Source: a virus
Lineage: Duplodnaviria > Caudoviricetes
Direction: 5' to 3' (one strand)
DNA: 48,152 nucleotides
IMG/VR virus record: IMGVR_UViG_3300049926_000016
Location: 1-48,152 of that record
Below, in pieces: positions 29,855 through 45,883 of the stretch. Made by a program: the position numbers and the translations under genes. The notes below the pieces were generated by a model. That model worked only from the letters and a program-made list of their open reading frames with translations. It ran no database searches and was not told where the DNA came from. The stretch's first letter is position 1, and each line of letters opens with the position of its first letter.

Positions 29855-30246
29855 TGCGCCAATTGCAATGCCCCCAGTGTGGGGCGCCGATGTGGGAAGG
29901 CGGCCGATGCCCTTGGGACCGAGGTTCCGGGTGTATCGGCCGCTCACTCGTCGTATCTCCTGCCCCCCGTAGACGGCCTGAGAGCGTCGCAGCGCCCAAA
30001 GTGGCGCGCGTGTCCACGCCACGGCCGCAACGGGCAGCTACCCCCCGCGCTCGTCGGCTGGCAAAGCGGACGCCCGAGATGAAGCAGGCATACAACCTCG
30101 CCTACCTGCGCGAGCGCCGGGGACCCATCCCGCCGGGCCGCTGCGTCCAGTGCGCGGAGGCCATCGTGTGCCACAACCCCACGCGCCGTCGCTACTGCTC
30201 GCCCCGGTGCCGGGGCCGGTGGGAGAGGGCGCATCGTGGCGCGTAG
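29854..30246 (+). CDS. Cys-rich, basic Zn-finger protein
   Basis: GTG start at the previous stop; CPQC, CVQC, YCSPRC. Confidence 0.6.
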   Translation: MRQLQCPQCGAPMWEGGRCPWDRGSGCIGRSLVVSPAPRRRPESVAAPKVARVSTPRPQRAATPRARRLAKRTPEMKQAYNLAYLRERRGPIPPGRCVQCAEAIVCHNPTRRRYCSPRCRGRWERAHRGA

Positions 30247-30775
30247 GCCCGCCCACAAGACGGCCCACGTGCCGTGCCCGAACGGAGCCGCCAACTGGGC
30301 GGACTGTGACGAGGCCGTCGCTCACTCGTGGGGTCCGTGCAAGGCCATCGTCGGCAAGCATGAGCCCGAGCCCTGCTCGCGCTGGGCTTTCGATGACAAG
30401 GGCTACTGCGGCCAGCACTACGTGGCCAAGGTCGAGGGGGAGCGGGAGGCCGAGCGCATTGCAATTGCCAAGGCGGCGCTGGCGCAGCGGATTGACGAGT
30501 ACATCGCGTGGACTGCCGAGCATCCGTCGGTCTGGGACTCGCGCCTCGCGCCGAGGGTGGCTGCGGGGGCAGGGCTCGAACCTGCGACCAACCGGGTAAC
30601 AACCGGCCGCTCTACCACTGAGCTACCCCGCAAGGGTCCGCATCGGATTGTGGTGGAGCCGGAGGGAGTCGAACCCTCGTCGGTGGTCTCGCCCGAGCCC
30701 GAGGGCCTGAGCGCCGCCACCCGCACCAATCGGCCCCACAGGCTAACCGAGCTGGAATTAGCTGCCGACGGCTGA
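30236..30775 (+). CDS. Hypothetical Zn-binding protein; C-terminus runs antisense through the RNA genes
   Basis: First ~105 aa have typical codon usage and C..C..YCGQH; the last ~70 codons overlap the tRNA and TLD antisense. Confidence 0.55.
   Translation: MARRPAHKTAHVPCPNGAANWADCDEAVAHSWGPCKAIVGKHEPEPCSRWAFDDKGYCGQHYVAKVEGEREAERIAIAKAALAQRIDEYIAWTAEHPSVWDSRLAPRVAAGAGLEPATNRVTTGRSTTELPRKGPHRIVVEPEGVEPSSVVSPEPEGLSAATRTNRPHRLTELELAADG
30558..30632 (-). tRNA. tRNA-Asn (GTT)
   Basis: TGCGGGG TA GCTC AGTGGTA GAGC G GCCGG TTGTTAC CCGGT TGGTC GCAGG TTCGAGC CCTGC CCCCGCA G CCA: full cloverleaf, G73, encoded CCA. Confidence 0.96.
30651..30737 (-). ncRNA. Mini-tmRNA: tRNA-like domain only (87 nt)
   Basis: GGGGCCG/CGGCTCC acceptor with G3:U70, A73, CCA; stemless D-loop; long P2-like helix capped by a tetraloop; GAC linker; T-arm GAGGG-TTCGACT-CCCTC; no anticodon loop or tag ORF. 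Confidence 0.85.
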
Positions 30776-31062
30776 CCGTCCATCGCATCCGGCTGGTTCC
30801 ACTTCACCCCGGGCTAACACTCCGGGACTACTGCTGGGCTGGTCGGGCTGGTTAGTTCTAGGACAGCTTACCGTCGGCCCCGCCATCATACCACCACCCC
30901 GGACAATCAGAAAGACCCGGTCTCGATAACCGGGCCTAACCTTCGTCGCCGGGTGGTACAGCCGCTTGGTCTTACCACAGAACCATTGAGCTACCGGAAA
31001 TGCCTCGCTCACTTGGTCCTGACTTCCGGCTTCCCTGTCCACCCGAGAGGGGCTTCCAGCTC
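30749..31062 (-). ncRNA. Putative structured ncRNA (~310 nt), family unidentified
   Basis: Terminal 9-bp inverted repeat encloses several nested helices; lies between a promoter and the TLD/tRNA; no credible ORF. Confidence 0.65.
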
Positions 31063-35756: not shown

Positions 35757-38700
35757 CTAGACCGCGATGAACCTATACGACAGGGTCGAGCCCGGAGTCA
35801 GGTTGCCCGGCGTCCCGGTCTTCGTCCACAGCATGTCGAGCGTCACGTCGTTGGTGGCGTCGTACGGGATGACAATGTTCAGTACGGTCGAGAAGTGCTT
35901 GAACAGGGTTGAGGCGCCCGAGTTGATGGTATGCGTGGCCCACGTCGTATGGACAGCCGAGGCGGCCGTCACGGTGACGAGTGTGCCGACCCACTGGTGG
36001 GTCCCGGCGGCCAGTGCGGTACCGCCGCCAGCGACGAACGCCTCCGTAACCAGTTTCTCCGCCCAGATGCCAGCCGTCCCCTCCTGAAGGGCATTGTCCG
36101 GGCCGAACCACGCGCTGATGGACGCCGCCTGATTGGCTAGAATGGCCGACGTGGTATGACGGCAGGTGCAGAGCCAACGGGTCCCGTCGTAGCGGAACTC
36201 CATGCCGATGTCCGAGCGGTAGAAGTGGTCGCCCGTCACCGGACTGGCCGGGAACGCCGCGCCCGTGCGGTTGATGACACCATTGCCCTTCAGGGTGAAG
36301 CCCGTGCCAGCCGATTTCAATTGGGCGGGGGTGCCCGCCGGGAACGCCGTGCCTGTGCCGTCGTGGGTCCCCGACCCCGTGTAGTCGGTGAACACGCGGG
36401 ACGTGAACAGGCCCGTGGCTTGCAGCCAGTAGGTCCCGGCCCCGGTATCCGTGGCGTTCATCAGGAAGTAGGCGCGTCGGTTGTCCGGGTCGTCCGTGCC
36501 ACCGACCGGGATGGCCGGGTTGCCGAACGTGACCTGCTCGCGCCGACGAATGACCAAGCTGGTGCGCGGGCTGACGGCGGTCTCGTGCGTGCCGCCAGTG
36601 GCGTTAGAGTCGTACCACGAGTAGGCACCCCAGAGGGTCGAGCTGGCCGTCGTCCAGTCCCATGCGCTGAACTTCCAGACCTTGGTCGGGGTGCCGATGG
36701 CGAAGCCCCGGAAGACGGTGCCGTCGTGGGTGAGTCCGGAGCCAATTGTAATTGCCTGCCCAAAGTCTCGGTTGGCCGTGTTCGTTAGAGTCGAGCCTGA
36801 CCACGTGTAGCCGTAGACCGCCGAGGTCGTGGCAATCCAGTAGGTAGCCGCGCTCGCATTGAGCGGGTCGTTGAGGCGGGCGCCTCCCCGGAACGTGTCG
36901 GTCGTGCCGCTGAAGGTGGGGCCAGCGACGGCCGTGGCGGTCGTGGCACTGACGGCCAGCGTGCTCGGCGTGACCCAGACCACCTTCATAAACACCCCGG
37001 CCCCGGTGCCGGTCGTGGTCGTGATGACGAGGAGGGTGGACCCGGCGTCGTAGAACAGGCCAGCCTGCGCCTTGGTCCCAGAGATGGCTGTCTGGACGCC
37101 CGAGTTCGTCACCCACGCCAGCGTGGTGCGGTCGTACTTCCAGACGACGCCGTTCGTGTCGAGGGTGTAGATGTAGGTCCCGTCGGTGCAGACGCCAATC
37201 ATCTTGGCGGTCTCCTTGCGGGTGTCCACGTCGTACGTGTAGGTGAAATAGACGTTTGGCTTGCCCGCCGTGTCGCGCGTGCCCCAGCCCGTGCCGTCGG
37301 CAGTGGTCCCGTCGCCCGAGTAGGTGGTCTTTCCGGAGCCGTCATCCTTGTCGTGCTGGCTGCCATCCGTCGAGTTGACGCGGCGGAAGCCGACGCGGTA
37401 GGTCGTCCCACCCGTGACGGCGAGGGCCGATGACAATGTGGCGTTGTGCAGGTCCGAGGCTCCAACGGTCGTCACGCCACCGGAGGCCGCCGTGTAGGTG
37501 GCGCTCTCACGAAGGTTGACGTTCGAGGTATTCCAGACACCGTTGCGCGTCGAGCACGTGCCCGAGCGGCCCGCCATGTAGACGGCGACCTTGGTGATTT
37601 TCAGGTTGGTGGCACCAGCCGGGTTCGGCATGACCATCGGCGTCGTGATGTGCGAGTCGGTCGAGCCGACCAGTCCGTCAGCGGTATCGGAGATGTGTGA
37701 GGTCGAGCCCGAGGTCGTGGTGAACGAGGCGATAGACCCGGTCGCACCGATTGACCGGACGAGCGCGCCCGTCGTCGCGTTGAACTCCTGCGCCACGTAG
37801 AAGGGCGAGACGGTCGGGTCACAGGCGACCCAGAAGGTCCCAGCCCCGGAGTCGTACCCGATGCCCGCACCGATGTTCGTCGGCGTGGCGCCGAGGGTCA
37901 GGCTGTCCACGCCAGCCACCATCGTTGGCGCCGTGCTTGGAGTGGCGACGCCATTCTGGAGGGTGCCGACGAGGCCCGACTCCAATGACAATGCGGTGCG
38001 CAGCGCCGTGGCGGACTGGACCGTCAGGGTGTCGGCGTCCACCTTGCCACGGAAGTAGACCGGGTCGCCGTTCGTCGGGATGTTGACGATGAGGCTGTCG
38101 TCAGTGTCCATGAGCCGGATGCCCGCTGTGTCAATCTCCACGCGCCGGGTGCCGGACTGGCCGGTCTTGATGAGCGACGACAGGACGATGGTGGCGGCGA
38201 GGATGTCGGCCGTCACGGCGCCCGCGTGGAGGAGCGGCGTGGTGATGGAGCCCGGCAGGATTTTCGACTCGGTGATGATGCCGTCCTGCACGTCGTTGGC
38301 CAGCAGGGCGATGCTCGCGGAGAGGCTGTCGTTGCCCGCGATGGTGGTGACGGTAGCCTCGGTGCAGTACGGCCCGGCGTTACCGTAGACGTCCCACTCC
38401 CGGACGCGGACATTGTAATTGGTGGAGCCGAGGCACGGGATGCTCAGCTCAGTCGAGCCCTCCGGCATGTTGTAGATGAGGGGGGACGTCCAGTCGGCGA
38501 CGGTCGTGATGACCTTGACGATGGTGGCCGCCGAGATGTCGGACGTGAAGTCCACGGCCGCGCCGCCGAGCGTCAGGCTCACCTTGAAGTCGTTGGCCGT
38601 CAGGCCGGTCGCGATGACGAAGTAGTCTGGCGACGCGATGGTCAGACCGGCGCCACCCGCCAGTGACATGAACCGGACCTTGTCGTTGGCGATGAGCCCG

Positions 38701-39194
38701 TGGGCGGCCAGCGTTATGAGGTCGGTTGCCGCGACGCCCGTGGCGGTCCCGGGGATGGCCTGCTGGTCCGTGTACTTGTGGGTGATTTGGACCTCCCACG
38801 CGCGGACCTTCGCCTCGGCCGTGTCGTTGAGATGGACGATGAGTCGGGCGATGCCCGACACCATGAGGCTCGACACCGTCGGCAGGCTCGGGGTGGGCAC
38901 GGCGGCAGGCGGCGCCATGGGTTCGGTCGGGTCCGTGATTTGGCTGTACGTGGCGTTGGCCGGGTCCGTGTCCGTGGTCTCCACGACGACCTGCATCGTG
39001 GCCGACGTCAGGGTGGCGAACGTCAGCGGGGTCCCCGCGTCTGTCTCGCTGATTTGGAAGGCGTCAGCGGTCAGCCCGGCGGCCAGCACGTAGTAGACGG
39101 TATCGACGTCGATGGGTGCGCCGCCCACGAGGTTGCTGAAGACGATGCGCTGCGAGGCCGTCAGGCCGTGCGCGACTCGGTTGATGGTGCTCAT
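35757..39194 (-). CDS. Tail fibre / receptor-binding protein (~1145 aa)
   Basis: Start MSTINRVAHG; two AHGL domains, Fn3-like region, ITESKI..GSIT repeats, T/G-rich beta region, FPASPVTGDHFYRSD...YDGTRW. Confidence 0.85.
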   Translation of the reverse strand: MSTINRVAHGLTASQRIVFSNLVGGAPIDVDTVYYVLAAGLTADAFQISETDAGTPLTFATLTSATMQVVVETTDTDPANATYSQITDPTEPMAPPAAVPTPSLPTVSSLMVSGIARLIVHLNDTAEAKVRAWEVQITHKYTDQQAIPGTATGVAATDLITLAAHGLIANDKVRFMSLAGGAGLTIASPDYFVIATGLTANDFKVSLTLGGAAVDFTSDISAATIVKVITTVADWTSPLIYNMPEGSTELSIPCLGSTNYNVRVREWDVYGNAGPYCTEATVTTIAGNDSLSASIALLANDVQDGIITESKILPGSITTPLLHAGAVTADILAATIVLSSLIKTGQSGTRRVEIDTAGIRLMDTDDSLIVNIPTNGDPVYFRGKVDADTLTVQSATALRTALSLESGLVGTLQNGVATPSTAPTMVAGVDSLTLGATPTNIGAGIGYDSGAGTFWVACDPTVSPFYVAQEFNATTGALVRSIGATGSIASFTTTSGSTSHISDTADGLVGSTDSHITTPMVMPNPAGATNLKITKVAVYMAGRSGTCSTRNGVWNTSNVNLRESATYTAASGGVTTVGASDLHNATLSSALAVTGGTTYRVGFRRVNSTDGSQHDKDDGSGKTTYSGDGTTADGTGWGTRDTAGKPNVYFTYTYDVDTRKETAKMIGVCTDGTYIYTLDTNGVVWKYDRTTLAWVTNSGVQTAISGTKAQAGLFYDAGSTLLVITTTTGTGAGVFMKVVWVTPSTLAVSATTATAVAGPTFSGTTDTFRGGARLNDPLNASAATYWIATTSAVYGYTWSGSTLTNTANRDFGQAITIGSGLTHDGTVFRGFAIGTPTKVWKFSAWDWTTASSTLWGAYSWYDSNATGGTHETAVSPRTSLVIRRREQVTFGNPAIPVGGTDDPDNRRAYFLMNATDTGAGTYWLQATGLFTSRVFTDYTGSGTHDGTGTAFPAGTPAQLKSAGTGFTLKGNGVINRTGAAFPASPVTGDHFYRSDIGMEFRYDGTRWLCTCRHTTSAILANQAASISAWFGPDNALQEGTAGIWAEKLVTEAFVAGGGTALAAGTHQWVGTLVTVTAASAVHTTWATHTINSGASTLFKHFSTVLNIVIPYDATNDVTLDMLWTKTGTPGNLTPGSTLSYRFIAV

Positions 39195-42094
39195 GCGGTT
39201 CCCGTCACAGGCACGAGTGTACCATTCGAGTCCACCCGCTTGTAGACCTTGCCGGTCGTGCCGTCGTACCAGTAGAGGCTCGACGCCTTCAGCGGGTCCG
39301 GCGGGGTCCAGCCGAGCTGCCACTCGGGCTGCGGGCTGATGGGGTGCGACGGGATGAGCGCCGGGTCCGGGGCCGAGCTGTCCTCGCGCGGCAGCAGGGT
39401 GATGACGACCGACTGCTCGCCGATGTCCGTGGCCTCCCACGCGCAGGCGTAGGCCGCCCAGTAGCCGGAGCCGTAGGCGTCGGTGTTCACGGCGCCGTCG
39501 AGGATGTGGACCGGGAAGACGTCGCACACGTCCCAGCCTTGGAGCGGCTGGAGGAACAGAGTCCGGATGCCAATTGCAATGTTCTTTCCGAGCTTCGCCG
39601 ATTGCATTGCCGCCTGAAGGCCGCGCCGGTTCAGGTCGGCTTGGTCTTCGACCCCGTCCATGACGGCGACCGTGGCGATGCGACCATACAGGCTGGTCGA
39701 GGGCTGGAACGCCTGACCCTTGATGGTCTTGTAGACGACCTTGACGCCGTCACGGTTGCGGCCGACGACGTGCTGCACGTTCGCCCAGTCCTGCCCGAAG
39801 ATGATGACCCGGTAGCCCTGCACCAACTCGCCGTAGTAGAGTGCGAGGTCGGCCTTGATGCTCCCCGGGTTGTCGATAATCTGGAGCTGGTACGTCCCCG
39901 TCGTGGTCTTCACGACCTTCATGCGGGTCCGGATGCCCTGCCCTTGGCGGTGGCTGTCGAGGAGCCCGCCGATGAAGGACAGCGTCGGCTGCATGGTCGA
40001 GTAGACCGAGACCTTCTCGTTCATCGTGGCGATGGCGCCAATTGCAATGAACCCGACCCAGCCGTCCGTCTGCTTCTTTGCGTAGTTGAGCTGGTCGAGG
40101 ACGATGTTGCGGATTGTCACCTTCTCGTAGTAGGACCCGTTGCTCTTGTAGCTCTTGTTCGGCTTCAGTGGGTCGTACCGCTCGTCAATGATGGTGTCGT
40201 ACAGGGCGAGGTAGTCCACGCCCTTGAAGACGACGTCGGTCTCGGTGGCATCCACGTCCCAGATGACGCCCGCGAACTTCTCCTGCCAGCCGTCGCCCGA
40301 GTAGAACTCGACCGCGTAGTGGACCTGCTTCGGCTGGACGGCCGCGAGCTGCTGGTCGTCCTTCAGGAGGGTGAAGTGGATTTCGCCCGGGCTGTTGTAG
40401 ACGAGGCTGGCCCCGACGTTCTTCGCCTCCTCGAACACGGCGACCAGTCGCCCCGGCGCGCGGCCCACGGTGGGGGTGACGCCGTCGGCCTGAAGGAGGT
40501 CGCGGATGAGGATGCGCCACGGCGCCTTCGGGTTGATTTGGACCGCGTCATAGCTGCCCGGGTCCGGATTGAAGTCCTGCGTCAGGACGATGGTGGCGTA
40601 TGTCCACGCGGAGACGCCTTGCTTCTGGTCCCACTGCCGCGCGCGCCAGTAGTACGTCCCGGCGGCGAGCGCCCGGCCGCTGTAATACTCCGTCCAGTCG
40701 GTGGCACCGAGCGGGTCCGAGGTCTGCCCCGAGTCCCACAGGATGCCGTCCGGCTCGTTCCACGACGACGAGCCCGGGAGGAACGGGCTGAGCTGGACCT
40801 GATGCGAGTCGAGATGGTCTCCCGCGTCCGAGTCACTGAATGTGCCGCCTTGGAACTTGACGAGGTTCAGGCTGGCGAACGATGCGCCACTGACGGGGAG
40901 AAGGGTCGGCGCGTTGGGCGGGGTGTCCGTCAGGCTGATGGTGACGAGCCCGGACCACGGCGACGTCTGGCCCTCTTGGTCCTTGTACTGGGCGCGCCAG
41001 CGGTAGTTGACACCGGCCTGCATGTTGAACCCGTAGTTGCGCATGTCCACTTGGAACCGGGCGTTGGTCCGCTCGGTGTTAGTGGCGACCTGCGTGGCGG
41101 TGGCGATGACCTTCGAGTAGGTCAGGGCCGAGTAGTTCGTGGTGATGGCCACGATGCCCGCGCCGTTCGGGACGGTCCGCAGCTTGAACGCGTTGGCGGT
41201 CAGGCCCGAGGAGTGGACGTAGTAGGTGGCGAACGCCGTCAGCCCGGCGCCGCCCGTCAGGCTGGTGAACCGAATGAGGTCGTTGGCGTGGAGCCCATGC
41301 GCCGTCTTGTTGATGAGGTCAGACGAGGCCGTCGCCGTGCCCGCGACGCCGTTGTCGTAGATTTCAATGTTGGTGGATTGCAATGTGTCGGTGGCTCGGA
41401 TGTCGCTGAAGTCACCGCCGAAGTCCACCACGGACGCCTGCGCCCCGACCGGCACCATGTTCTGCGGGACGTTCGGGATGGTCGGCCCCAGCGTGTAGGT
41501 GATGGTGAGGACCGGCCGCTCCGACACGTTGCCGTGCTCGCGCGACCATGCCGACCAGTTCTGCTTCGAGTCGCTGTACCCGTACAGGCCGAACCCGTGG
41601 TTGCTCGCCTTGCCGCCGCCGGACACGGACGACGGAGCCCACGCCTTGACGATGGTCAGGACGTCGAGCTGGTGCAGAAGGGCGGAGCCCTTGGGCAGGA
41701 CGGTCGGGGTCTTCTGGCCCGACGTGGTGTAGCTCGGGTTGACGTAGTCCGTCGAGTCGAAGTGACCGTCGGCGTTGTTGCCCTCGGTGAAGGCGGACGT
41801 CAGCCGCCGAATGACAATCTTCGGGGTGTCGGTGCTGCCCGGCGCGGTCATAATCCCGGGCTCGCCGGAGGCGCCGAAGCTGTCGTACTCGTCGGTGTAG
41901 ATGTCCAGCGTGGCGGCCGTGATGGTGGCCATGCCCGTGAACGAGATGGGGAAGTGGAGGAACGAGTCGTAGTCCCGGGAGCCTTGGCGCCCGATGTAGA
42001 GATGCTTCGACTTGCCGCAGCCCTGACCGCTGCCACCGCTCGTGCTGTTGGACCGGACCGTGTCCCTGTCTGGGGAGAAGGTGATGACCGGCAC
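39191..42094 (-). CDS. Multidomain tail/baseplate protein (DNRLRE/CBM-like, AHGL domain, Fn3-like, hub-like C-terminus)
   Basis: ITAATLDIY...NHGF...RPVLTITY; YRWRAQ..D and YYWRAR..D Fn3-type strands; C-terminal minor-tail-like region. Confidence 0.8.
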   Translation of the reverse strand: MPVITFSPDRDTVRSNSTSGGSGQGCGKSKHLYIGRQGSRDYDSFLHFPISFTGMATITAATLDIYTDEYDSFGASGEPGIMTAPGSTDTPKIVIRRLTSAFTEGNNADGHFDSTDYVNPSYTTSGQKTPTVLPKGSALLHQLDVLTIVKAWAPSSVSGGGKASNHGFGLYGYSDSKQNWSAWSREHGNVSERPVLTITYTLGPTIPNVPQNMVPVGAQASVVDFGGDFSDIRATDTLQSTNIEIYDNGVAGTATASSDLINKTAHGLHANDLIRFTSLTGGAGLTAFATYYVHSSGLTANAFKLRTVPNGAGIVAITTNYSALTYSKVIATATQVATNTERTNARFQVDMRNYGFNMQAGVNYRWRAQYKDQEGQTSPWSGLVTISLTDTPPNAPTLLPVSGASFASLNLVKFQGGTFSDSDAGDHLDSHQVQLSPFLPGSSSWNEPDGILWDSGQTSDPLGATDWTEYYSGRALAAGTYYWRARQWDQKQGVSAWTYATIVLTQDFNPDPGSYDAVQINPKAPWRILIRDLLQADGVTPTVGRAPGRLVAVFEEAKNVGASLVYNSPGEIHFTLLKDDQQLAAVQPKQVHYAVEFYSGDGWQEKFAGVIWDVDATETDVVFKGVDYLALYDTIIDERYDPLKPNKSYKSNGSYYEKVTIRNIVLDQLNYAKKQTDGWVGFIAIGAIATMNEKVSVYSTMQPTLSFIGGLLDSHRQGQGIRTRMKVVKTTTGTYQLQIIDNPGSIKADLALYYGELVQGYRVIIFGQDWANVQHVVGRNRDGVKVVYKTIKGQAFQPSTSLYGRIATVAVMDGVEDQADLNRRGLQAAMQSAKLGKNIAIGIRTLFLQPLQGWDVCDVFPVHILDGAVNTDAYGSGYWAAYACAWEATDIGEQSVVITLLPREDSSAPDPALIPSHPISPQPEWQLGWTPPDPLKASSLYWYDGTTGKVYKRVDSNGTLVPVTGTA

Positions 42095-42964: not shown

Positions 42965-43147
42965 CTACTCCCTCACGTCCCGGGACACAAGGTCCCCGGC
43001 GAGGTACCGCTCGTAGTTGAGCGCGATGTCGGCGTCACGGGCGACGCGGTCGTTGGCCCAGACGCAGACGGCGCATGGGCAGCCATCGAGGGGGGCCGGT
43101 CGGCCGTCGTGGGCGGGGGCAGCGGGGGCAGCGTTCGCGGTCTTCAT
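42965..43147 (-). CDS. Small hypothetical protein
   Basis: ATGA overlap start MKTANAAP; CPCAVC. Confidence 0.55.
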   Translation of the reverse strand: MKTANAAPAAPAHDGRPAPLDGCPCAVCVWANDRVARDADIALNYERYLAGDLVSRDVRE

Positions 43148-44562
43148 GCGTAGGACTCCCAAAACCACATGTGGCTTCCATCGACGGACCCCGGGTCGAG
43201 GACCGTTCCAGTCAGAGTGACAGTATACGCGCTGGACCCGGCGGGCACAAGCGGCCACGTCGTAGCGTTGGTGAAGGTGAGCCAGCTCCGGCGAAGCTGC
43301 TCGACGCCGTTCTCCTCCACCGTAAAGACCTTCTCCCGCTTGAACCGCAGGAGACGCCGCGACACCTTCGAGTACGAGACCACGGTGTAGTTGACCGTGA
43401 TGTTGATGGCGGCGCCACCGGCCGTCAGGGAGACAGCGAAGGCGTTGGCGGTGAGCCCGGTGGCGATGACGTAGTAGTTCGTGTTCAGGGCCAGTCCGGT
43501 CCCCGCCGTCAGGGTCGTGAAGTAGACCCGGTCTCCGGCGACCAGCCCGTGAGCGGTCTTCGTGACGAGGTCCGTACCGGCGTCCGCCGTGGCCCCGGTG
43601 TAGGCCGGGTCGGTGGTGGCCGGAATTGCAATGGTGTAGTTCGAGGCGCCCGCGACGACGGTGATGACCCCCGCCTGTGCGCCGACCGCCATGAGCATGT
43701 TGAGCGGGGCGTTGTACGTGCCCCGGTTCAGGAAGGTGCCGCTGAAGGTCTGGTACTTGGCGGCCTCGACCCGGGTGTAGAGAACCGTGATGTCCACGAT
43801 GGCCCCGCCGTTGGTCAGGGAGACCTTGAAGTCGTTGGCCGTCAGCCCGGTGGCGCTCACGTAGTACGACGTGTTCAGCGCGAGCCCGGTGCCCGCCACG
43901 AGACGGGTGAAGTAGATGCGGTCGCCAGCGACAAGCCCGTGCGCCGTAATTGTAATGAGGTCCGACGTCGCGGCCGTGCCGTTGACGAGGACGACGGTGT
44001 CGGCGAAGGCCACGTCCTGTGGCACGACGCCCTCGAAGGTAGGGTCGCGCATGGCGAACATGCCGGACCACGTCATGGCCATCGCGTCTCCATCCACGCC
44101 GCCGTGGCTGTCCCGGCTGACGGGGGCGTGGAACCCCTTGGGCATCACGAGCGCGCGCATGTCGATGGTGCCGCTCGGGTAGTTCGCTTGGTCGTTGGTC
44201 GGGACGCTGAAGTACAGGGGCAGGTAGCCCTTGTCGCCCGGGATTTCGCGGGCCGCAAGCACGGGGCTCATCGTCGCCCGGAGCTGCCACAGGATGTCGT
44301 AGCACAGGGCTCGGGTCTTGCCGTACACCGTGCCGCCGAGCCGGATGCGCCGCCCGCCGAGGAACGGGTTGCCGACGTCCATGCCGTCCGCCTCCGCGCG
44401 CTTCTCGCTGAACTGGACGATGTCCACGTCATCGGGGTCGAAGGTGTCGATGACCGACCCGGCGATGCCCTTGCCCAGACCATCCGTGCTGTCAACGGCG
44501 TCGGCGACCGCCGAGTCGTTCAGCTTGAAGTTCCGGTAGATGATGTCCCGAGTCGTATCCAT
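43144..44562 (-). CDS. Distal-tail (Dit)-like protein with two AHGL domains
   Basis: SD GGAGG before MDTTRD; GRRIRLGGTV...LRATMSP and NRGTYNAP motifs resemble Dit proteins. Confidence 0.7.
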   Translation of the reverse strand: MDTTRDIIYRNFKLNDSAVADAVDSTDGLGKGIAGSVIDTFDPDDVDIVQFSEKRAEADGMDVGNPFLGGRRIRLGGTVYGKTRALCYDILWQLRATMSPVLAAREIPGDKGYLPLYFSVPTNDQANYPSGTIDMRALVMPKGFHAPVSRDSHGGVDGDAMAMTWSGMFAMRDPTFEGVVPQDVAFADTVVLVNGTAATSDLITITAHGLVAGDRIYFTRLVAGTGLALNTSYYVSATGLTANDFKVSLTNGGAIVDITVLYTRVEAAKYQTFSGTFLNRGTYNAPLNMLMAVGAQAGVITVVAGASNYTIAIPATTDPAYTGATADAGTDLVTKTAHGLVAGDRVYFTTLTAGTGLALNTNYYVIATGLTANAFAVSLTAGGAAINITVNYTVVSYSKVSRRLLRFKREKVFTVEENGVEQLRRSWLTFTNATTWPLVPAGSSAYTVTLTGTVLDPGSVDGSHMWFWESYA

Positions 44563-44581
44563 TGGCCTCCCATGGTACATG

Positions 44582-44650: not shown

Positions 44651-45883
44651 CTAGAGCTGGGACGTGTGCTCGATGCGCCGGTACCGGGCGGGGGTGACGC
44701 CAGTGGCGTTGGCACCCTCTCCCATGATGACGGCCCCGAACATGCCCTTCCACCCAATCTGGGTGAGCTGATGCAGCGGGTCCGTGGTCCCACCCGGCTG
44801 GGTGAGGTACGTCTGGATGCTGCCCCAGTCGCCGAAGGCGTACGCCTCCGGTCCGAAGATGACCGCATTGAGCACGTCGTTGACCACGTTGGCCGTGAAG
44901 GCCGAGCTGTCCGACGTGATGTCGATGGCCGCGCCGTTGAGCGTTGCCGACAGCTTGAAGGTCGTCGCCGTGACAGGCGCCACGACGAAGTACGTGTTGC
45001 CTGCGGTCAGGCCCGCACCGCCCGTGATGGCGGTGATTTTGATGCGGTTCCCCGCCACCAGACCCAGAGGGGCCGAGTAGGTGATGAGGTCTGTGGCCGC
45101 GATGGCCGCCGCACCCGCGTTCGTCAGGACCGGGCCGTTGACAGCCGCGAAGCTGACAGCCGCCGGGGACTCGATGAACCGGACGCCTGCGTACCGGCCG
45201 ACTTCCCCTGTGAACAGGGCAGCCGAACCCGCGTAACGCTGGGCGTCAATCCACCCGCCGACCGCCGTGTCGCTTTCGAGGTCGAAGGTCGAACCCGGGT
45301 GCACGATGGCGCGGTAGGTGCCGTCCGAGAAGGTCGGGACCGCAGCAGCCTTCAGGCGAGCGACGGTGAGCTTCACGAGCGCGCCCGTGAGGGCGGAGTT
45401 GCTGTTGATGGTCGCACGGGAGGTTGCCCCACCCGCATACGTGACCTGCGCACCAGCCGACAGGACCTCGGCGACCCTGCGGTCGGCCGTGGCGATGGCG
45501 TTGCGTGCGACTCGGTCGGCGGCCTCGCTCAGGAGGTCGAAGGGCGACTCCATGAGACCGATGTCCGAGAGCTTGATGACGCGGCCTGCCTGATTGGCAG
45601 AGAATTCCTCGTAGCCGATGGCGAGGTCTTCCGTGGTGTTCGGCGCGCCCTCGTTGAGCCACGGGAGCGTGCCCGGGGTCGGCGTACCGGCCACGACGGA
45701 CATGTCCGCGATGTTGATGAACCGCATGACGTTGTTCGTCCCCTTGACGAACGCGGCCTCACGGAAGTTGCCCGGAAGAAGGTGCGGGAGCGGTGCTCGG
45801 AGCAGTTCCTCCAGACGCTTGTTCACCAGAGCGACAACCGTCTGGTTGAAGTTCGTGGTGGCGGTGGAAACGATGGTACCCAT
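44651..45883 (-). CDS. Major capsid protein, N4-gp56 family, with an inserted AHGL-type domain
   Basis: LNEG, AIVHP...DL, W..AQRY, GEVGRYAGVRFIES, FGPEAY, DPLHQ...GWK motifs; SD GGAG. Confidence 0.93.
   Translation of the reverse strand: MGTIVSTATTNFNQTVVALVNKRLEELLRAPLPHLLPGNFREAAFVKGTNNVMRFINIADMSVVAGTPTPGTLPWLNEGAPNTTEDLAIGYEEFSANQAGRVIKLSDIGLMESPFDLLSEAADRVARNAIATADRRVAEVLSAGAQVTYAGGATSRATINSNSALTGALVKLTVARLKAAAVPTFSDGTYRAIVHPGSTFDLESDTAVGGWIDAQRYAGSAALFTGEVGRYAGVRFIESPAAVSFAAVNGPVLTNAGAAAIAATDLITYSAPLGLVAGNRIKITAITGGAGLTAGNTYFVVAPVTATTFKLSATLNGAAIDITSDSSAFTANVVNDVLNAVIFGPEAYAFGDWGSIQTYLTQPGGTTDPLHQLTQIGWKGMFGAVIMGEGANATGVTPARYRRIEHTSQL

What the first reader, a model, noticed from the sequence alone, without database searches (positions are those of the whole stretch)
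30651..30737. 87-nt tmRNA tRNA-like domain with no mRNA domain: candidate SmpB sponge or tag-free ribosome rescue RNA
Seen (minus strand): GGGGCCG ATTGGTGCG GGTGG CGG CGCTC A GGCC CTCG GGCT C GGGCG AGA CCACC GAC GAGGG TTCGACT CCCTC CGGCTCC A CCA. It has Ala identity (G3:U70, A73), no D-stem, the GAC linker before the T-arm and an interrupted P2-like helix, all tmRNA hallmarks. The pseudoknots and tag ORF are replaced by a tetraloop. Both ends are intact and pair, so it is not an att-site remnant. Established: the TLD binds SmpB, AlaRS and EF-Tu; MLD-less forms are known in some mitochondria and, as I recall, rarely in phage. Inference: it blocks host trans-translation by titrating SmpB, or releases stalled ribosomes without adding a degradation tag.
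Basis: partly seen in the sequence, partly recalled or inferred. Interest (0 to 1): 0.8.

Follow-up and report, generated by a model that had tools for sequence, protein, structure and literature searches.

The report
Phage mini-tmRNA with a shortened elbow
This soil phage carries a conserved 87-base RNA gene that copies only the tRNA-like head of the bacterial ribosome-rescue RNA (tmRNA), a form already reported from one phage, and this copy belongs to a small subgroup missing a base that every sampled host tmRNA keeps, so it likely competes with the host's rescue-and-tag system, though binding to the rescue protein SmpB is untested.

Summary
The element is real: 87 nt at 30651-30737(-), 7/7 acceptor pairs with G3·U70 and A73-CCA, no D-stem, GAC linker, T-arm. 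It scores 45.2 bits as tmRNA and 17.4 as tRNA. It sits beside tRNA-Asn in a phage genome with no integrase or SmpB found.

A related phage keeps it at 4 differences in 89 nt while both flanks are replaced; another relative lacks it. One soil RNA contig covers it (weak hint).

The kind is published: mycobacteriophage DS6A's TLD-only tmRNA, reported to inhibit host tmRNA. This scan also found the kind repeatedly on other phages. I recover 66 viral homologues with strong covariation.

Particular here: the D-loop ends GG-UG-CG with helix P2a starting at once, so A20 is missing. All 200 host tmRNAs sampled keep it. Eight other high-GC elements share this A20-less loop.

Best reading: a competitor of host trans-translation (0.5). 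SmpB binding is the least secure step for this variant. New variant of a known kind.

The parts
30651..30737 (-). TLD-only tmRNA-like gene, 87 nt, CCA encoded
   Evidence: Sequence; RF00023 45.2 bits vs tRNA 17.4; kept in a related phage with 4 differences in 89 nt
30731..30737 (-). Acceptor stem 5' strand; G3 at 30735
   Evidence: Pairs 7/7 with 30655-30661
30722..30730 (-). Stemless 9-nt D-loop ending GG-UG-CG; keeps GG and a CG step (C18/G19-like), lacks A20 and U17 (E. coli numbering)
   Evidence: Sequence; contrast with 200 of 200 host tmRNAs that keep A20
30682..30721 (-). P2-like arm: 5 bp (30721-30717 with 30686-30682), 3x3 loop, 5 bp, 1x1 loop, 4 bp, CUCG tetraloop (30703-30700); replaces pseudoknots and tag frame
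   Evidence: Fold; no room for a reading frame
30679..30681 (-). GAC connector
   Evidence: Sequence; aligned to the tmRNA GAC by RF00023
30662..30678 (-). T-arm, 5 bp with 7-nt loop
30651..30661 (-). Acceptor 3' strand with U70 (30657), discriminator A73 (30654) and CCA
   Evidence: Sequence
30558..30632 (-). tRNA-Asn(GUU), 18 nt downstream, likely co-transcribed
   Evidence: ARAGORN; RF00005 69.1 bits
30764..30878 (-). Upstream ~115-nt hairpin with central bubble; likely leader or separate RNA on the same precursor
   Evidence: Fold (not better than shuffles); covered with the TLD by one RNA contig; replaced in run X3's phage
30885..30893 (-). Extended -10-like site (TGnTATGAT), candidate promoter of the precursor
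   Evidence: Read by eye; not listed by the promoter scan

Best explanation
It is a phage gene for a message-less copy of tmRNA's tRNA-like domain that is likely transcribed with the tRNA cassette, likely trimmed and alanylated by host enzymes, and likely competes with host tmRNA for SmpB and stalled ribosomes, which would lower ssrA tagging during infection. Shown: anatomy, alanine identity elements, absence of a tag frame, selection to the gene's ends, patchy presence among related phages, and no SmpB found in the phage. Inferred: expression and processing (one weak RNA contig), charging (from G3·U70/A73), SmpB binding (published for canonical TLDs; uncertain for this A20-less loop) and inhibition (by analogy with DS6A).
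For: The DS6A RNA (83 nt, 43.2 bits) has the same plan. PMC11915505 says it inhibits endogenous tmRNA in E. coli; PMC4131195 says a similar molecule inhibits whether or not chargeable, perhaps by titrating SmpB (passages read). In 66 viral homologues chosen by D-loop motif alone, P2a pairs in 301 of 330 cells against 156±8 shuffled, and both free acceptor pairs are Watson-Crick in 60 of 66 against 6 of 29 motif-less hits. So the SmpB-facing elbow and P2 helix are kept while the message is lost. No SmpB match in this genome or in 30 of 30 TLD-bearing viral records (11 near-complete), so any SmpB partner would be the host's. This copy keeps GG, a CG step and GAC; G19, C18 and A334 are SmpB contacts (PMC8363625). 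Purifying selection in a relative: 4 of 89 differences in the gene against about 128 in the 872 nt beside it, with both flanks replaced.
Against: A20 and U17 are missing, while A20 is kept in 200 of 200 sampled host tmRNAs. If the loop is registered from P2a rather than by the CG step, C falls at position 19, and G19C is reported to abolish SmpB binding. A model of 11 canonical phage TLDs scores it only 45.8 bits; canonical members score about 50-84 and false positives 43-47. One of two visible changes in the relative (C55 to G) breaks a P2a pair unless an unlisted change compensates. Mao et al. 2009 was not available. Host unknown.
Confidence: 0.5

Rival explanations
1. Tag-free rescue: the Ala-charged RNA with SmpB and EF-Tu would enter stalled ribosomes, accept the peptide and eject the broken mRNA. 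The peptide would then be released without the ssrA tag, possibly after repeated rounds that add an alanine tail.
For: G3·U70, A73 and T-arm are kept, which a pure sponge need not keep (but the G3·U70 letters were fixed in my search patterns, so their constancy in homologues is not evidence). An alanyl-TLD·SmpB·EF-Tu complex binds stalled ribosomes (PMC3968760). CDS-less organellar tmRNAs persist with SmpB (PMC11915505).
Against: There is no stop codon to recruit RF1/RF2. No release factor, Pth or SmpB family appeared among 150 of 197 neighbour ORFs scanned. The published effect of the DS6A-like RNA is inhibition, with or without charging.
Confidence: 0.2
2. The A20-less subgroup has left SmpB and works as an anticodon-free, alanine-marked decoy or donor, for example bait for defence RNases or SmpB-like domains that target tmRNA/tRNA, or a sink for AlaRS/EF-Tu.
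For: The A20 loss recurs in 9 distinct sequences with intact P2a (45 of 45 cells paired; 12-22 of 45 when slid), so it looks selected rather than decayed. It sits in a tRNA cassette where a relative carries tRNA-Met and tRNA-Trp instead. CoCoNuT systems carry SmpB-like domains predicted to bind tmRNA (PMC11090510, passages).
Against: GG, CG and the P2a geometry are kept, which suits SmpB (GG..CG and GAC were fixed in the patterns; P2a position was not). No link to any defence system was tested.
Confidence: 0.22
3. It is a non-functional remnant: an att-site piece, a decayed tmRNA, or a by-product of the overlapping + strand ORF 30236-30775.
For: Score is below the Rfam cut-off and near false positives. 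It is absent from 4 of 4 near-complete related phage records. An ORF overlaps it antisense.
Against: No integrase or resolvase found. Both ends pair. It is more conserved than the coding DNA beside it in a relative. The overlapping ORF tail has GC3 0.73 against 0.87 for its N-terminal part, and similarity to the relative's ORF stops where the RNA begins.
Confidence: 0.08

Closest known systems
TLD-only tmRNA of mycobacteriophage DS6A (tmRNA Website tmID 11587; JN698994 28478-28560; PMC4131195, PMC11915505)
   Same: Phage-encoded, 83-87 nt, G3·U70/A73 acceptor, stemless D-loop, P2 arm closed by a hairpin, T-arm, no tag frame.
   Different: DS6A keeps the UCGA D-loop (with CAC for GAC and no encoded CCA). 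This copy has GAC and CCA but a 9-nt D-loop without A20, a three-segment arm, and lies in a tRNA cassette.
Standard bacterial tmRNA (ssrA, Rfam RF00023)
   Same: TLD anatomy and alanine identity elements.
   Different: No pseudoknots, no mRNA-like domain, no tag; lacks A20, which 200 of 200 sampled host tmRNAs keep.
CDS-less organellar tmRNAs (jakobid mitochondria; Mallomonadaceae plastids, about 65 nt; PMC11915505, PMC3985003)
   Same: TLD without a tag frame.
   Different: Those are the organelle's own gene; here it is an extra, phage-borne copy beside a presumably intact host system. Their sequences were not compared here.
tRNA-Ala (RF00005)
   Same: Acceptor identity and T-arm.
   Different: No D-stem or anticodon arm; 17.4 bits against the 29 cut-off.

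Membership tests
TLD-only (CDS-less) tmRNA, DS6A kind | 7-bp acceptor with G3·U70, A73, CCA | tested here: met
TLD-only (CDS-less) tmRNA, DS6A kind | Stemless D-loop, P2a helix, GAC-type connector, T-arm | tested here: met
TLD-only (CDS-less) tmRNA, DS6A kind | No tag frame or pseudoknot ring; both gene ends present | tested here: met
   87 nt end to end
TLD-only (CDS-less) tmRNA, DS6A kind | UCGA D-loop motif (U17 C18 G19 A20) | tested here: not met
   Reads GCG then P2a; shared with 8 other elements; hence filed as a variant, not a plain member
TLD-only (CDS-less) tmRNA, DS6A kind | Expressed as a discrete RNA | tested here: inconclusive
   One 207-nt metatranscriptome contig, depth 2.7, 30660-30866
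TLD-only (CDS-less) tmRNA, DS6A kind | Binds SmpB, is alanylated, inhibits tagging | not testable with these tools
   Needs bench assays
Standard tmRNA (RF00023) | mRNA-like domain with resume codon, tag and stop | tested here: not met
   About 300 model positions are matched by 34 nt; 45.2 bits, under 47
tRNA (RF00005) | Cloverleaf with D-stem and anticodon arm | tested here: not met
   17.4 bits; not called by ARAGORN
att-site tmRNA fragment | One gene end only, with an integrase in the element | tested here: not met
   Both ends pair; PF00589 and PF00239 not found in the genome
Permuted two-piece tmRNA (RF04321) | Acceptor piece precedes the 5' piece and a coding region follows | tested here: not met
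   Order is standard; 23.3 bits, E 0.09

The most novel reading that the evidence does not exclude
The A20-less mini-tmRNAs are a separate functional class: phage RNAs with a re-engineered elbow that either free stalled ribosomes with no tag (or an alanine tail), or act as SmpB-independent bait for tmRNA-targeting defence proteins. That would be an RNA-only counter-measure at the ribosome-rescue step.
Probability: 0.25. Interest if true: 0.75.

Novelty: new variant of a known kind. Interest (0 to 1): 0.43.

Why it matters
Trans-translation is essential in many bacteria and is an antibiotic target. Natural RNAs that block or bypass it would show that phages manipulate ribosome rescue, and they give ready test molecules. 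The A20-less group is a natural experiment on which D-loop bases SmpB needs. These genes are missed by ARAGORN and fall below the Rfam cut-off, so they go unannotated. The general idea is in print for DS6A, which limits the surprise.

Tried and rejected
BLAST of the locus and of the 87-mer against GenBank phages gave only tRNA-Asn or T-arm matches among the rows listed (40 of 1344 and 60 of 547).

The genome contigs pattern scan was unspecific: 100 of the 120 loci shown held clean full-length host tmRNAs, and only L135 (a 1.6-kb MAG contig) was a clear TLD-only gene. It cannot size the family in cellular genomes.

Model R1 (65 sequences, including the window's) was mis-aligned at the 5' end and left out the acceptor stem; I replaced it with R2.

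Host assignment failed. The terminase has a 62% partial match to a Chloroflexota MAG protein and the capsid a 52% match to a Nocardioides MAG protein. The terminase hit 0 of 401 genomes of G001's phylum (actinobacterial by its tmRNA tags), and the capsid hit 1 of 401 genomes in G495's phylum at 44%. The idea that a host lineage has an A20-less tmRNA found no support (0 of 200). That sample is biased to canonical genes because ARAGORN and RF00023 found them.

The loose pattern search was uninformative. No recurrent partner protein was found: neighbour ORFs cluster only among close relatives, and Pfam hits for 150 of 197 ORFs are generic phage genes.

Folding the 321-nt precursor whole loses the TLD fold; I treat this as uninformative because such precursors fold while being made and are processed.

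Runs X2 and X6 gave only short or tRNA-type matches over the gene. Seven literature searches listed no paper describing a widespread phage TLD-only family or an A20-less form. Subscription papers, including Mao et al. 2009, are not held, and the supplements of PMC11915505, which may list more viral entries, were not opened.

Full report
Observation. It folds into a 7-bp acceptor stem, a 9-nt unpaired D-loop, a three-segment arm (5 bp, 5 bp, 4 bp, CUCG loop), a GAC connector, a 5-bp T-arm and ACCA. Folding energy is not exceptional (z -1.37), but a TLD descriptor matched 0 of 300 shuffled windows. Rfam gives tmRNA 45.2 bits (cut-off 47) and tRNA 17.4 bits (cut-off 29). An ordinary tRNA-Ala reaches 42 bits on the tmRNA model, so the low tRNA score and the anatomy matter more than the tmRNA score.

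Setting. The window is a 48-kb phage record, rated 100% complete, with terminase, major capsid and primase genes. No tyrosine integrase, resolvase or SmpB was found. The RNA lies 18 nt upstream of tRNA-Asn. An extended -10-like site at 30893-30885 (read by eye) and a 115-nt hairpin precede it. The host could not be assigned.

Relatives of this phage. A complete syntenic relative (L121, G003) has tRNA-Met, tRNA-Trp and tRNA-Asn here and no TLD anywhere. Of 25 records found by capsid similarity, none had a canonical hit; one had a weak 24-bit element elsewhere, and 0 of 4 near-complete records had any. Most of these records are fragments.

Selection. In contigs of runs X3 and X4 (one other soil study) the gene is kept from 30650 to 30738 with 4 differences. 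In X3 the 872 nt beside it differ at about 128 places, the downstream spacer differs and the upstream 162 nt are replaced by 198 others. Two of the four differences are listed: position 50, in a loop, and position 55, which would break a P2a pair unless one of the two unlisted changes is its partner. I could not see that.

Expression. A metatranscriptome contig from a further study covers 30660-30866 with one change that keeps a pair as U·G. Its ends lie 9 and 12 nt inside the predicted precursor ends. It is a single contig at depth 2.7 and may be DNA, so it is a weak hint.

The wider family. A pattern scan of IMG/VR showed 119 loci of about 220 estimated, giving 95 distinct sequences besides this one. 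I chose 66 of them by D-loop motif alone (51 clusters at about 85%, 69-88 nt). Both unconstrained acceptor pairs are Watson-Crick in 60 of 66, against 6 of 29 without the motif, which by eye are mostly tmRNA 3' ends. P2a pairs 2-6 form in 301 of 330 cells, against 156±8 shuffled and 110-145 slid. A model-fitted alignment of 70 hits gives covariation 0.70 against 0.14 (it leans to the model). Twelve of 46 viral loci have another tRNA within 1.5 kb. No partner protein recurs, and 0 of 30 records match SmpB.

What is particular here. Host tmRNAs end the D-loop in UCGA or UUGA before P2a: 100 of 100 (20 of 120 loci had no clean call), 31 of 31 actinobacterial-type (one is a repeat) and 70 of 70 from G495's phylum, including the 40 lowest scoring. 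That is 200 distinct genes, biased to canonical ones by the finders. This RNA ends GG-UG-CG and P2a follows at once.

The A20-less group. Scans for GG-NN-CG loops returned 10 distinct hits with a 7/7 acceptor. In 8 of them P2a starts right after CG, which the pattern did not demand; one has C at position 20 and one is the 3' end of a full tmRNA. The other hits of those scans (1 of 5, 12 of 18) had imperfect acceptors in the register tested and were dropped. With the window, the 9 sequences pair in 45 of 45 P2a cells (12-22 when slid), have 9-10-nt D-loops and 29-55-nt arms, and lie in 61-71% GC DNA. Of these, the five that were tested score 43.7-45.8 on a model of 11 canonical TLDs, level with false positives, so routine searches would lose them.

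Known precedent. PMC4131195 (passages read) lists DS6A as 'TLD only' and says a similar molecule, chargeable or not, strongly inhibits tmRNA, perhaps by titrating SmpB. PMC11915505 (passages) says the DS6A form inhibits endogenous tmRNA in E. coli and surveys only RefSeq viruses. The primary paper was not available. I located the DS6A RNA: 83 nt, 43.2 bits, UCGA loop retained. PMC8363625 (passages) places SmpB Trp122 in a pocket of A15, U17 and A334, with G19 stacked on C18, and reports that G19C abolishes binding. PMC3968760, PMC3985003, PMC11090510 and PMC9004378 were read as passages; PMC4174442 gave no matching passage. This scan's earlier notes report the same kind on at least seven other genomes, two with off-type elbows; none concerns this place or sequence.

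Mechanism. Most likely (0.5) the RNA is made with the tRNA cassette, matured and charged by host enzymes, and competes with host tmRNA for SmpB and stalled ribosomes, cutting ssrA tagging. By the CG register it keeps C18, G19 and A334 and loses A20 and U17; by the P2a register it would carry C at 19, the change that kills binding. So binding is the open step. Rivals are tag-free rescue (0.2), an SmpB-independent decoy or alanine donor (0.22) and a remnant (0.08). The first two readings are not exclusive.

Verdict. A real, selected RNA gene of a published kind, in a recurrent variant with a shortened elbow that I did not find described in the papers searched. Interest 0.43.

Noticed in passing
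window 30940-30998 (-): A ~60-nt RNA motif conserved in L121 and in contigs of runs X3, X5 (RNA) and X6, with compensatory changes in two crossing pairings. It lies between a strong sigma-70 site (31138-31111) and a terminator-like hairpin (30937-30913), so it may be the 3' part of a ~200-nt small RNA. No Rfam match. A few words recall pistol/twister ribozymes (from memory), but the topology differs. Only L121 was found in IMG/VR.
   Followed up: partly
window 30764-30878 (-): Long hairpin with a central bubble, 6S-like in outline (recalled), on the same RNA contig as the TLD. It is replaced in run X3's phage; the loose end at the same place in run X4 resembles its 3' end. Folding is not better than shuffles.
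   Followed up: partly
L318:1501-1572 (-), G906: A related phage (capsid 85% identical) carries, at another site, a 72-nt element with a 7/7 acceptor, G3·U70 and T-arm but a diverged D-loop and connector; 24 bits on model R2.
   Followed up: partly
L289 (G059:C13:64027-64107): A genome with an ordinary tmRNA also holds a canonical 81-nt TLD-only gene, 56.8 bits on RF00023; whether it lies in a prophage was not checked.
   Followed up: no
window 30745-30760 (-): A short motif just upstream of the TLD recurs upstream of tRNA-Asn in L121 and in a contig of run X1; it may be a decayed tRNA D-arm or a processing signal.
   Followed up: no
window 44651-45883, 43144-44580, 35757-39527 (-): The major capsid protein and two other structural proteins share an inserted domain matching PHROG 4711; two of the three also match tail-fibre PHROG 9370.
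   Followed up: no
L129: A MAG titled Limnocylindrales has an actinobacterial-type tmRNA, and its class relatives carry actinobacterial-type tags; the title may be wrong.
   Followed up: no
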